NCBI GenBank assembly: GCA_044226855.1
Contig: JBGAGF010000013.1
Coordinates: 95,507-159,506, forward strand
DNA length: 64,000 bases
Direction of reading: 5' to 3'
Origin: Aggregatilineales bacterium
GTDB taxonomy: Bacteria; Chloroflexota; Anaerolineae; Aggregatilineales; Phototrophicaceae
A program made the position numbers and the translations under genes. This document shows, piece by piece, positions 54,810 through 56,260 of the stretch; the stretch's first letter is position 1, and each line of letters starts with the position of its first letter. A model generated the notes under the pieces. The model saw nothing but the letters and a program-made list of their open reading frames with translations. It did no database searches and had not been told where the DNA came from.

Positions 54810-56260
54810 ATGCCTAAGGTTTTTATTTCCTACCGTCGTGCAGACAGCCAAACCATTACAGATCGTATTTATGATCGATTAGCGGCGGTATTTGGTGAAG
54901 AAAATGTATTTCAAGACGTGGATAGTATTCGCGCGGGTGCTGATTTCCGTGTGGTGCTGAAGGACGCTGTCGAGTTTTGTGATGTTGTACTGGTAATAAT
55001 CGGTTCGAAATGGGCTAGAGTCACGGATGACCTAGGACAGAAGCGACTGATGAATCCGGCTGATTTCGTCCGGATCGAGTTAGAAAGCGCACTCAACAGT
55101 CAAAAGGTTGTTATTCCTGCACTCATAGAAGGGGCGATGATGCCCGATGCGGATGATTTACCGCCATCCCTGCATGAATTGTTATTTCGGAATGCCGTCA
55201 AAATCCGCCATAATCCTGATTTCAAACGCGATATACAGCGGCTAATCGAACAGATTCAAGCTATTGATGCAGACAAACAAACAAGCAGCACACCATATGT
55301 CAGCAACGCCAGTTGGCGACGTTGGCGCAAACCCGCTATTGGTCTTGTCATCACTGTTCTTGTATCAGTAGGTATTGTTGCTGCAATACTGTCACGACAA
55401 CAAACACCCAATAGAGTCACGCCGACCGCTGCACCAACGAATATACCTCTAGCAGCAGTATCGGCAGCTACACTGCAAGCAATTGTACAACCAACGCAAA
55501 TACCAACTGTCATGATGCCTATTGTGGTTTCCCGCAACGTCGACTGGAAACCCGTTGAGCGTGATGTTAACGGGGTGATGATGGTGCAAGTGCCAGAAGG
55601 GTGTTTTGATATGGGCAATGATCCACAAGCTTTTGATGGTCCGATACAAGGAGTAGGCAATGGTGGTCACATTTGTTTTATCAGTGCTTTTTGGATAGAC
55701 AAAACAGAAGTGACTAACGCGCAGTTTACACAGTTTGGTGGCAAGCAGCACAGCCAAGCAATTGGACGAATCCCAACCACCCACGCGAAACGATTACGTG
55801 GTTTGAAGCACGCGACTTCTGCGCTGCGCGCGGCGGGCGTTTACCTACGGAGGCGGAGTGGGAATATTCAGCTCGCGGACCAGATAATCTGGCATATCCG
55901 TGGGGCAATTCATTTGTAGGCGATAACGTGGTCTATTCTGAGAACTCAAATTATCAAACAGCGGATGTTGGCAGCAAACCTAAAGGGGCATCGTGGGTAG
56001 GAGCGCTCGATATGAGCGGTAATGTGTGGGAATGGGTTTCAACACTCTACTGGCGGTATCCGTATCCTATACCAGACAGCAATGAAGAAGCTATACTGTG
56101 GATAAATTATAACGATATTGCTGATTATCGTGCCCTGCGCGGCGACTCATGGTATCCTACATATTTAGAGTACTTGCGGTCAGCCTCCCGTTACAGGGAC
56201 TTGCAGGATTATTCGTATAATGATCTTGGCTTTCGGTGTGTAGTTTCCCTCTCACAATAA
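54810..56260 (+). pseudogene. TIR - transmembrane - FGE-sulfatase (SUMF1/EgtB-like) domain protein, disrupted by internal deletion plus frameshift
   Basis: ORF 54810..55919 has an N-terminal TIR_2-like domain (MPKVFISYRRADS...RIELESAL...VVIPAL), one TM helix, and the start of an FGE domain (GCFDMG...FWIDKTEVTNAQFTQF). The rest of the FGE domain ([34 protein letters not shown]...DMSGNVWEWV...LRGDSW...GFRCV) is in another frame (55718..56260). Confidence 0.6.

What the first reader, a model, noticed from the sequence alone, without database searches (positions are those of the whole stretch)
54810..56260. TIR - TM - FGE-sulfatase (SUMF1-like) receptor-like fusion, broken by deletion plus frameshift, directly downstream of the IS3/IS1 cluster
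The N-terminus has a cytoplasmic TIR_2-like domain and the middle has one TM helix. The C-terminus has a formylglycine-generating-enzyme fold, split between frame 1 (GCFDMG...FWIDKTEVTNAQFTQF) and the frame of 55928-56260 ([34 protein letters not shown]...DMSGNVWEWV...RGDSW...GFRCV). Only about 19 residues separate EVTN from HP(V), where FGE domains normally have about 50-60. So there is an out-of-frame deletion near 55720-55780. The topology (extracytoplasmic ligand-binding-like domain, TM, cytoplasmic TIR) mirrors Toll-like receptor logic in reverse order and is uncharacterised. Adjacency to two IS elements and its pseudogene state suggest an accessory or defence-like locus in decay.
Basis: partly seen in the sequence, partly recalled or inferred. 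Interest (0 to 1): 0.65.

Follow-up and report, generated by a model that had tools for sequence, protein, structure and literature searches.

The report
Frameshifted TIR–membrane–lectin-fold sensor pseudogene
This is a recently broken copy (one missing base) of a common, untested Anaerolineae membrane protein that pairs an inside NAD-cleaving TIR domain with an outside lectin-like binding domain, so the locus itself is ordinary.

Summary
The domains and the frameshift are real; the proposed deletion is not.

- **Gene layout.** Window 54810-56260 (+) encodes a TIR_2 domain, one transmembrane helix, a Pro/Thr-rich linker and an FGE-sulfatase-fold domain. A frame change splits it.
- **The lesion.** One G of a GG pair is missing at 55745/55746. 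The short EVTN...HPRE linker has the same length, in frame, in 21 full-length homologues and in the syntenic orthologue.
- **Not an artefact.** Logan contigs from two other sequencing runs carry the identical frameshift. All 17 neighbouring syntenic genes are intact. The repaired protein departs from family-conserved positions less than most intact homologues do, so the break is recent.
- **The family is common.** 68 of the 120 best database hits have both domains, mostly from Anaerolineae/Chloroflexota. Published comparative genomics already treats such lectin-fold domains as predicted invader sensors fused to TIR effectors.
- **Retroelement link.** Some relatives are genuine diversity-generating retroelement (DGR) targets; I confirmed one. 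This copy has no template repeat, reverse transcriptase or hairpin within 64 kb.
- **Domain details.** The TIR is SARM1-like and keeps the catalytic Glu. The FGE-like domain lacks the catalytic cysteines.
- **Context.** The gene sits among housekeeping genes, not in a defence island.

Verdict: a new, pseudogenised member of a known but biochemically untested kind. Interest is low to moderate.

The parts
54810..55745 (+). First reading frame of the TIR-TM-FGE gene, aa 1-312 of the ancestral protein, from ATG 54810 to the last in-frame codon AAG (K312).
54819..55244 (+). TIR_2 domain (aa 4-145), SARM1-like. The FISYRR motif is shared with SARM1. E90 (codon 55077-55079) aligns with the SARM1 catalytic Glu E642 and is invariant in the homologues.
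   Evidence: Pfam E 1.5e-11; PDB phmmer hit to SARM1 TIR, E 1.3e-4, with printed alignment; invariant columns; orthologue model matches SARM1 TIR, target-normalised TM 0.86-0.90
55335..55391 (+). Single transmembrane helix (aa 176-194, AIGLVITVLVSVGIVAAIL). It has four K/R on the N-terminal side and two on the C-terminal side, so the TIR is predicted inside and the FGE domain outside.
   Evidence: the same pattern holds in 21 of the 22 family members
55392..55577 (+). Pro/Thr/Ala-rich low-complexity linker between the membrane and the FGE-like domain.
   Evidence: mean column entropy 2.52 bits for aa 151-240
55578..55745 (+). FGE-sulfatase fold, N-terminal part (aa 257-312; Pfam profile positions 4-62).
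55745..55746 (+). Frameshift site. One G of an ancestral AAG-GCA is missing: the window reads GGC AAG CAG where the orthologue reads GGC AAG GCA.
   Evidence: The identical sequence is present in Logan contigs L001 and L090
55746..55919 (+). Out-of-frame tail of the 369-aa ORF (57 unrelated residues, then a stop at 55917-55919).
55745..56260 (+). FGE-sulfatase fold, C-terminal part, in the -1 frame (aa 313-483 of the repaired protein plus the stop codon). The frame is open for its whole length.
   Evidence: Pfam E 1.8e-33; tblastn; PDB hits to PorK/GldK, FGE, EgtB and TvpA
56153..56227 (+). Hypervariable C-terminal stretch (aa 449-473) between the invariant RGGSW and GFRC scaffolds. It is the positional equivalent of the variable repeat (VR) in DGR-targeted relatives. 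It contains no cysteines.
   Evidence: entropy 2.47 bits against 1.38 for the FGE core; aligned to the confirmed VR of L003
52418..53675 (+). IS3-family element. Inverted repeats at 52418-52443 and 53650-53675; orfA 52490..52777; orfB 52819..53640; 4-bp target duplication GCTG at 52414-52417 and 53676-53679. It is inserted in the conserved upstream intergenic region.
53788..54574 (+). IS1-family element (transposase ORF 53832..54566) flanked by the 8-bp target AGGAATAT at 53780-53787 and 54575-54582. It lies 235 nt upstream of the ATG.
54583..54686 (+). A 104-nt MITE-like derivative with IS1-type terminal repeats and an internal GC hairpin, followed by a third AGGAATAT copy at 54687-54694. Both this element and the IS1 are absent from the empty-site allele in Logan contig L001.
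56269..56330 (+). A 62-nt copy of the 5' end of the E2 acyltransferase gene. The true gene is at 21243..22490 on the minus strand. The copy marks the breakpoint of an inversion relative to the related genome.

Best explanation
The locus is a recently inactivated copy of a single-gene, type-II membrane sensor-effector that is common in Anaerolineae (Chloroflexota).

Shown:
- The ancestral 483-aa protein has an N-terminal SARM1-like TIR domain with the catalytic Glu retained, one TM helix, a Pro/Thr-rich stalk and a C-terminal FGE-sulfatase (C-type-lectin-like) fold.
- That fold lacks the FGE catalytic cysteines.
- Its C-terminal surface, between the RGGSW and GFRC scaffolds, is the most variable part of the domain.
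- Loss of one G at 55745/55746 shifts the frame. The product is TIR, TM and about 135 extracytoplasmic residues, followed by a 57-residue nonsense tail. The binding domain is destroyed.
- The frameshift is real and is the only lesion.
- An IS3 insertion, and a still-polymorphic IS1 plus MITE insertion, split the conserved upstream region.

Inferred:
- The topology is TIR inside and FGE-fold domain outside, from the positive-inside rule.
- In intact relatives the external lectin-fold domain binds a ligand. Candidates are a phage or foreign surface molecule, or a neighbour-cell signal.
- Binding would cluster the protein and bring the cytoplasmic TIR domains together.
- Clustering would switch on NAD+ cleavage, either depleting NAD+ or producing a signal nucleotide, as in SARM1 and bacterial TIR defence proteins.
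- In this genome that function is lost.
For: - Domains.
- Single-base repair, with the linker the same length in 21 homologues and in the orthologue.
- The frameshift is present in two independent Logan assemblies, SRR28480383 and SRR14092381, each 100% identical across the site.
- All 17 other genes syntenic with L006 are full length in a single frame.
- Only 3 of 113 conserved columns deviate, against 0-12 in intact homologues. The downstream frame is open for 171 codons.
- TIR: the best solved relative is the SARM1 NADase. E90 aligns with E642 and the FISYRR motif is shared. E90 is invariant in 22 and in 28 sequences. The orthologue model superposes on the SARM1 TIR at rmsd 1.8-2.8 A.
- Topology: one TM segment, with more K/R on the N-terminal side in 21 of 22 members.
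- FGE fold with hits to non-enzymatic relatives: PorK/GldK, the inactive human FGE paralogue SUMF2 and the DGR variable protein TvpA. There is no Cys between W448 and C477.
- Hypervariable tail.
- A relative is a confirmed DGR target whose variable repeat covers exactly this tail; 19 of 20 VR/TR mismatches fall at template-repeat (TR) adenines.
- No conserved partner genes across five neighbourhoods, so the system is a single gene.
- Literature predicting FGS/CLec domains as sensors fused to TIR effectors: PMC7159879, PMC8195603, PMC7517822, PMC10907252.
Against: - No member of this architecture has been tested. NADase activity, ligand binding, topology and any defence role are all inferences.
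- PADLOC gives only a partial generic TIR match (aa 3-63 to ThsB), so the protein belongs to no catalogued defence system.
- The chromosomal context is housekeeping, not a defence island.
- The truncated product still has an intact TIR and TM and could retain some activity.
- The window genome is not in the searchable genome collection. Paralogue number and any remote retroelement are therefore unknown.
Confidence: 0.6

Rival explanations
1. The frameshift is a sequencing or assembly error and the gene is intact in the organism.
For: - The window comes from an uncultured-organism assembly.
- The related assembly L006 has a split housekeeping lpd gene, so frameshift errors may occur in this data series.
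- The rest of the coding sequence looks perfectly conserved.
Against: - Two Logan contigs assembled from different SRA runs are 100% identical to the window across the site.
- The site is a GG dinucleotide, not a long homopolymer.
- All 17 syntenic neighbours in the window are unbroken.
Confidence: 0.05
2. The gene is, or was until recently, a remote target of a diversity-generating retroelement encoded elsewhere in the genome. Its C-terminal tail would then be a true variable repeat written by mutagenic retrohoming.
For: - A relative with the same architecture is a confirmed DGR target, with the VR on the homologous tail.
- Invariant scaffold residues alternate with roughly 3-bit variable positions, matching that VR.
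- The tail is rich in Y, N, D and S.
- The literature reports template repeats located elsewhere in the genome for such proteins (PMC7159879, PMC8195603, PMC7517822).
Against: - There is no TR-like repeat, reverse transcriptase or Avd anywhere in the 64-kb window.
- There is no GC-rich 3' element or hairpin after the tail. The positive control in L003 shows both the TR and the hairpin.
- No TR lies within 10 kb of the orthologue or of the four closest homologues.
- The tail is identical in an independent sample.
- Ordinary divergence of a binding surface would give the same variability pattern.
Confidence: 0.12
3. Intact family members are not immune sensors. They would be signalling or cell-cell recognition receptors of filamentous Anaerolineae. 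The TIR would act as a regulated NAD-derived signal generator or an interaction scaffold, and loss here would be neutral.
For: - The gene has a conserved chromosomal position among housekeeping genes and is not in a defence island.
- No partner effector gene is conserved.
- Vallota-Eastman et al. argue for regulatory tuning roles for such CLec fusion proteins (PMC7517822).
Against: - The catalytic Glu and the SARM1-like active-site motif are strictly conserved.
- Hypervariability of the outer surface, DGR targeting of relatives and multiple paralogues per locus are typical of conflict systems.
- In L005 a homologue lies close to effector-associated-domain genes (EAD8) typical of conflict systems.
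Confidence: 0.18
4. The C-terminal domain is an enzyme of the FGE, EgtB or PvdO type, as automatic annotation suggests ("SUMF1/EgtB/PvdO family nonheme iron enzyme").
For: - Source names on homologues say so.
- There are Pfam FGE-sulfatase and PDB FGE/EgtB sequence hits.
Against: - The stretch that holds the FGE Cys pair contains no cysteine. The positions C336 and C341 in human FGE are from my own knowledge; PDB entry titles for 2aft and 2afy name those mutants.
- There is no DinB-type iron-binding domain as in EgtB.
- All NCBIfam enzyme models score far below their cut-offs: EgtB 68 against 360, PvdO 28 against 500.
- The active-site region is the most variable part of the domain.
Confidence: 0.03
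5. The split gene is still functional, either through -1 ribosomal slippage at GGC-AAG-C or because the truncated TIR-TM product works on its own.
For: - A -1 slip after AAG would restore exactly K-A-A-Q.
- TIR and TM are intact, and the downstream frame is still open.
Against: - There is no X-XXY-YYZ slippery heptamer at the site.
- All 21 homologues and the orthologue encode the protein in one frame.
- The truncated product lacks most of the binding domain.
Confidence: 0.03

Closest known systems
DGR variable proteins with an FGE-type C-type-lectin fold, including TvpA of Treponema denticola (PDB 2y3c) and TIR- or kinase-fused targets and their non-diversified paralogues in multicellular bacteria (PMC10907252, PMC7517822)
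   Same: - The fold is the same: TvpA hits at E 5.5e-9 by sequence and 2e-12 by structure for the orthologue model.
- An N-terminal effector or signalling domain precedes a C-terminal CLec domain.
- The variable surface lies between the RGGSW and GFRC scaffolds.
- A relative with the identical TIR-TM-FGE layout is a confirmed target.
   Different: - This copy has no template repeat, reverse transcriptase, Avd or post-VR hairpin within 64 kb.
- It behaves like the non-diversified paralogues described in cyanobacteria.
- It is also frameshifted.
FGS (PF03781) lectin-fold sensor modules of predicted bacterial conflict systems (Kaur, Burroughs, Iyer and Aravind: PMC7159879, PMC8195603)
   Same: - The FGE-fold domain is always C-terminal to the partner domain.
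- It is fused to TIR among other effectors.
- It is enriched in multicellular or filamentous bacteria.
- It is predicted to bind invader molecules directly.
   Different: - Those systems are mostly cytoplasmic and are coupled to STAND, MoxR-vWA or GTPase switches and adaptor domains.
- Here there is no NTPase. A TM helix places the sensor outside the cell, and no partner genes are conserved.
SARM1 and bacterial TIR NADases (Thoeris ThsB, TIR-STING, TIR-SAVED)
   Same: - The fold is TIR. SARM1 is the closest solved relative by sequence and by structure.
- The FISYRR motif is shared and the catalytic Glu is conserved.
- Activation by induced oligomerisation is the general rule for these enzymes; this last point is from my own knowledge.
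   Different: - There are no ARM/SAM, STING or SAVED regulatory domains and no ThsA partner.
- The PADLOC match is partial, covering aa 3-63 only.
- The regulatory input here would come from an extracytoplasmic domain through one TM helix.
Animal Toll-like receptors
   Same: The logic is shared: an extracellular recognition domain, a single TM helix and a cytoplasmic TIR.
   Different: - The order along the chain is reversed (type II orientation).
- The ectodomain is a lectin fold, not leucine-rich repeats.
- This TIR keeps the NADase Glu, whereas TLR TIRs are scaffolds.
- There is no evidence of common descent of the whole architecture.
Formylglycine-generating enzyme (SUMF1), EgtB/OvoA, PvdO, and the non-enzymatic PorK/GldK
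   Same: They share the Pfam FGE-sulfatase fold, including the conserved [10 protein letters not shown] and GNVWEW motifs.
   Different: - The catalytic Cys pair is absent and there is no DinB domain.
- Scores are far below every NCBIfam cut-off.
- Functionally the domain is closer to the non-catalytic members such as PorK/GldK, pFGE and TvpA.

Membership tests
TIR domain (Pfam TIR_2, PF13676) | The profile match is above the gathering score. | tested here: met
   45.3 bits against a cut-off of 28, aa 4-145
Catalytic (NAD+-cleaving) TIR domains | A conserved catalytic glutamate equivalent to SARM1 E642. | tested here: met
   E90 aligns with SARM1 E642 in the printed phmmer alignment. It is invariant in 22 and in 28 family members.
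Catalytic (NAD+-cleaving) TIR domains | Measured NAD+ hydrolase or cyclase activity. | not testable with these tools
   This needs a biochemical assay of the repaired allele or of P0003, with an E90A control.
FGE-sulfatase fold (Pfam PF03781) | The profile match is above the gathering score across the whole domain. | tested here: met
   The repaired protein scores 139.8 bits over profile positions 4-254. As it stands in the window the match is split, 26.9 and 116.7 bits in two frames.
Formylglycine-generating enzyme (SUMF1) proper | A pair of catalytic copper-binding cysteines in the C-terminal active-site loop. | tested here: not met
   There is no cysteine between W448 and C477. The location of the pair in human FGE (C336, C341) is from my own knowledge; PDB titles for 2aft and 2afy name those mutants.
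EgtB / OvoA sulfoxide synthases | An N-terminal DinB-type iron-binding domain plus the FGE fold, with a score above the NCBIfam cut-off. | tested here: not met
   EgtB scores 68 bits against 360 and ovoA 17.7 against 400. The N-terminus is TIR, not DinB.
DGR target (variable protein) | A cognate template repeat whose mismatches to the variable repeat fall at template adenines. | tested here: inconclusive
   There is none in the 64-kb window. The genome is absent from the searchable collection: the pattern did not even find the VR itself. The positive control in L003 showed 19 of 20 mismatches at TR adenines.
DGR target (variable protein) | A reverse transcriptase and Avd accessory gene in the locus. 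| tested here: not met
   tblastn with the L003 RT and Avd finds nothing in the window. There is also nothing near the orthologue or the closest homologues.
DGR target (variable protein) | A hairpin or GC-rich element immediately 3' of the variable repeat. | tested here: not met
   No inverted repeat was detected after 56240 in the window. The same blastn approach, run on L003, recovered the hairpin after its VR.
DGR target (variable protein) | A C-terminal CLec-fold stretch in which conserved scaffold residues alternate with hypervariable positions. | tested here: met
   Entropy is 2.47 bits for aa 449-473, against 0.35 for the scaffold and 1.38 for the core. The stretch aligns to the L003 VR.
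Thoeris or other catalogued TIR defence systems (PADLOC, NCBIfam) | A full-length match to the system's TIR protein and presence of the partner gene (for example ThsA). | tested here: not met
   ThsB matches aa 3-63 only. ThcB4 scores 39 bits against 220. The neighbours are housekeeping genes.
Single-pass type II membrane receptor (TIR in, sensor out) | One TM helix with a positive-inside bias on the N-terminal side. | tested here: met
   Mean hydropathy of the 19-mer is 2.82. K/R counts are 4 on the N side and 2 on the C side. The bias holds in 21 of 22 members. This is a prediction only; there is no experimental topology.
Functional gene | One uninterrupted reading frame. | tested here: not met
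   There is a one-base deletion at 55745/55746, reproduced in two independent assemblies.

The most novel reading that the evidence does not exclude
Intact TIR-TM-FGE-fold proteins of Anaerolineae may be true bacterial counterparts of Toll-like receptors. In this reading they are single-gene surface immune receptors. A hypervariable external lectin-fold domain, rewritten by a retroelement in some paralogues, would recognise phage or foreign surface molecules outside the cell. Clustering would then fire a SARM1-like NADase inside. The window copy would be a freshly lost receptor specificity in a family that turns over quickly.
Probability: 0.3. Interest if true: 0.7.

Novelty: new member of a known kind. 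Interest (0 to 1): 0.3.

Why it matters
For this locus, little. It is a single-base pseudogene of an abundant gene family, sitting among housekeeping genes.

At family level the architecture is more interesting. It is a compact, single-gene design that would carry recognition from outside the cell to a SARM1-like NADase inside. Some members are diversified by retroelements. This makes a concrete, testable version of the published idea that lectin-fold FGE-like domains are antigen sensors of multicellular bacteria.

The intact orthologue P0003 and the one-base-repaired allele are ready-made constructs for such a test.

The case also shows that the automatic name "SUMF1/EgtB/PvdO family nonheme iron enzyme" is misleading for these proteins.

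Tried and rejected
- **Large deletion in the FGE domain.** Rejected. The linker length is identical in 21 homologues and in the orthologue.
- **Template repeat in the window.** A blastn search with short words found only the self match and an unrelated 62-nt copy of the E2 gene start.
- **Template repeat in the window's genome.** A degenerate pattern scan of genome contigs found nothing, not even the VR itself. The genome is therefore not in that collection.
- **Second genome-contig scan.** It was of little use for TIR-specific context.
- **RT and Avd.** A tblastn search of the window and 89 loci found them next to an FGE gene only in L003/L004, L086 and L041, with a partial hit in L012.
- **Organism name.** The exact-sequence cluster look-up returned no names. 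Taxonomy was taken instead from HisRS homologues.
- **Rfam and consensus scans.** Rfam found nothing near the gene, and the promoter and terminator scans were at background level.
- **Human FGE alignment.** I tried to print it to show the cysteine positions, but it did not rank among the alignments shown. The argument rests on the absence of any Cys in the stretch.
- **Programmed frameshifting.** Considered and rejected for lack of a slippery site.
- **Defence-island context.** Considered and rejected on the neighbour annotation.
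Full report
**What is in the sequence**

ORF 54810..55919 on the + strand (369 aa) starts with a TIR_2 domain at aa 4-145 (E 1.5e-11). Near its end it matches the first 60 positions of the Pfam FGE-sulfatase profile. 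The frame offset by -1, from about 55745 to the stop at 56258-56260, matches profile positions 87-254 (E 1.8e-33).

**The lesion is one missing base, not a deletion**

- Inserting a single nucleotide near 55743-55746 gives a 483-aa protein with one continuous FGE-sulfatase hit (profile 4-254, E 1.7e-40).
- In an alignment with 21 full-length homologues, the stretch EVTNAQF..FGG.AA....W.....PRE.ITW has the same length in every sequence.
- The syntenic orthologue P0003 reads FGGKAANASYWAGANRPRETINW.
- At DNA level the orthologue has GGA GGC AAG GCA GCC where the window has GGT GGC AAG CA GCA. One G of a GG pair is missing at 55745/55746.
- The roughly 24 Pfam profile positions skipped here are a native short loop of this subfamily.

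**The frameshift is genuine and recent**

- Logan contig L001 (run SRR28480383) is 100% identical to window 54686-56001 and encodes the same 369-aa product.
- Logan contig L090 (run SRR14092381) is 100% identical to window 55487-57220.
- The 17 other genes shared with the syntenic locus L006 are all full length in one frame in the window.
- At 113 columns that are at least 90% conserved among the homologues, the repaired protein deviates only three times: P293A, A354S and G446D. Intact homologues deviate 0 to 12 times.
- The downstream frame is still open for 171 codons. The frameshift is the only lesion.

**Anatomy of the ancestral protein**

- *TIR domain.* Its best solved relative is the SARM1 NADase TIR (E 1.3e-4). 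The FISYRR motif is shared. E90, in DFVRIE, aligns with SARM1 residue 642 by my count from the printed alignment and the full-length chain numbering. That E642 is the catalytic Glu is from my own knowledge. E90 is invariant in 22 and in 28 family members.
- *Structure model.* An AlphaFold model of orthologue P0003 has a TIR with pLDDT 94-97. It superposes on SARM1 TIR structures with target-normalised TM 0.86-0.90 and rmsd 1.8-2.8 A.
- *Membrane helix.* There is a single hydrophobic 19-mer at aa 176-194. It has more K/R on its N-terminal side in 21 of 22 members, which predicts TIR inside and FGE-fold domain outside.
- *FGE-like domain.* It matches PorK/GldK, FGE, pFGE, EgtB, CalU17 and the DGR variable protein TvpA. 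It has no cysteine where FGE carries its catalytic pair. It scores far below every NCBIfam enzyme cut-off.
- *Variable tail.* Between the invariant RGGSW and GFRC scaffolds, aa 449-473 are the most variable part of the domain: 2.47 bits, against 1.38 for the core.

**Family and literature**

- Of the 120 best database hits, 68 carry both PF13676 and PF03781. Named ones are from Anaerolineae, Anaerolineaceae, Phototrophicaceae and other Chloroflexota.
- HisRS from the window places the organism in uncultured Anaerolineaceae/Chloroflexota.
- Neighbourhoods of five homologues share no partner gene.
- In L003, two 616-aa TIR-TM-FGE genes are each followed by a reverse transcriptase and bAvd. Their C-terminal tail (L003 4834-4946) has a template repeat at 6527-6639, and 19 of 20 mismatches fall at template adenines. 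This is a genuine diversity-generating retroelement.
- Published comparative genomics already describes FGE-type C-type-lectin domains as predicted antigen or invader sensors. They are fused to TIR, kinase, caspase or NTPase modules, are often DGR-diversified, have non-diversified paralogues, and are enriched in multicellular bacteria including filamentous Chloroflexi (PMC7159879, PMC8195603, PMC7517822, PMC10907252).
- The window gene has no template repeat, RT, Avd or post-VR hairpin in 64 kb. The same holds for its orthologue and closest homologues within 10 kb.
- A remote template cannot be excluded, because the genome is not in the searchable collection.

**Genomic context**

- Locus L006 (GCA_044226325.1) is collinear with window 40780-52375 at about 75% nucleotide identity. 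There the intact orthologue lies between the Fe-S oxidoreductase and the E2 acyltransferase gene.
- In the window the E2 gene and what follows it are inverted (22490-15843). A 62-nt copy of the E2 start remains at 56269-56330.
- The conserved 460-nt upstream intergenic region is cut into three pieces.
  - One cut is an IS3-family element at 52418-53675, with target duplication GCTG.
  - The other is an IS1-family element (53788-54574) followed by a 104-nt MITE-like derivative (54583-54686). The 8-nt target AGGAATAT is present three times.
- Logan contig L001 carries the empty site for the IS1/MITE pair but the same frameshift. The frameshift therefore predates, or is independent of, that insertion.
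- The remaining neighbours are housekeeping genes: HisRS, DinB_2, PMT_2 glycosyltransferases, SerA and HAD hydrolases. This is not a defence island.

**Mechanism**

Shown: a SARM1-like TIR with the catalytic Glu, one TM helix, a non-catalytic lectin-fold domain with a hypervariable surface, and a disabling frameshift.

Inferred:
- The type II topology, with the TIR inside, rests on the positive-inside rule only.
- In intact relatives, ligand binding outside clusters the protein.
- Clustering brings the TIR domains together and triggers NAD+ cleavage.

In the window, the product ends after about one quarter of the binding domain, so sensing is lost.

Rivals considered:
- an assembly error (0.05);
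- a remote DGR target (0.12);
- a non-immune signalling role (0.18);
- an enzymatic FGE domain (0.03);
- frameshift tolerance (0.03).

**Verdict**

The locus is a new, pseudogenised member of a known but experimentally untested kind. Interest is 0.3. The family-level idea of a bacterial Toll-like surface receptor remains open and would be worth testing with the intact orthologue.

Noticed in passing
window 53780-54694; L001 1-160: An IS1-family element (53788-54574) and a 104-nt MITE-like derivative with the same terminal repeats (54583-54686) sit in tandem. The 8-nt target AGGAATAT is present three times. A Logan contig from run SRR28480383 carries the exact empty site, so the insertion is polymorphic or very recent.
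   Followed up: yes
window 52414-53679: An IS3-family element (52418-53675, TG...CA ends, orfA and orfB in the usual -1 arrangement) has a 4-bp target duplication GCTG. It is inserted into an intergenic region that is otherwise well conserved with locus L006.
   Followed up: yes
window 22424-22485 (-) and 56269-56330 (+): Two 62-nt inverted copies (89% identical) of the 5' end of the E2 acyltransferase gene flank a segment of about 34 kb. That segment is inverted relative to the gene order in L006. One breakpoint lies 9 nt after the stop codon of the TIR-FGE gene.
   Followed up: partly
window 52200-52417 and L006 9560-9790: The intergenic region upstream of the TIR-FGE gene is unusually well conserved between the two genomes. 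It contains a twice-repeated GCCGCTGAATTG motif (52307-52318 and 52350-52361). This may be a regulatory element or a small RNA.
   Followed up: no
L003 3104-6639 and 14662-18197: Two DGR cassettes (TIR-TM-FGE target, RT, bAvd, template repeat) are duplicated 11.6 kb apart. Their RT and Avd are 100% identical, and so are the 170 nt spanning the variable repeat and the hairpin after it. A third TIR-TM-FGE gene (P0045), which that template does not target, lies between them.
   Followed up: partly
L006 17116-18491: In the related assembly the dihydrolipoamide dehydrogenase gene is split into 404-aa and 59-aa pieces, whereas the window copy (15836..17239) is intact. This is either a frameshift error or a pseudogene in that assembly.
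   Followed up: no
P0003 residues 138-246 (orthologue; absent from the window protein): The orthologue has an extra predicted continuous helix of about 100 residues between the TIR and the TM segment. It may be a coiled-coil stalk. The window protein has only about 25 residues there.
   Followed up: no
window 56144-56146 (codon GAC, D446): The window protein has Asp where all 21 homologues have the second Gly of the invariant RGGSW scaffold motif. This is the only deviation at a fully invariant position.
   Followed up: partly
L005 4419-9036: Next to homologue P0089 lie an EAD8-TIR_2 protein, a separate 480-aa FGE-sulfatase protein and a small EAD8 protein. This is the adaptor-linked layout described for predicted conflict systems.
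   Followed up: no
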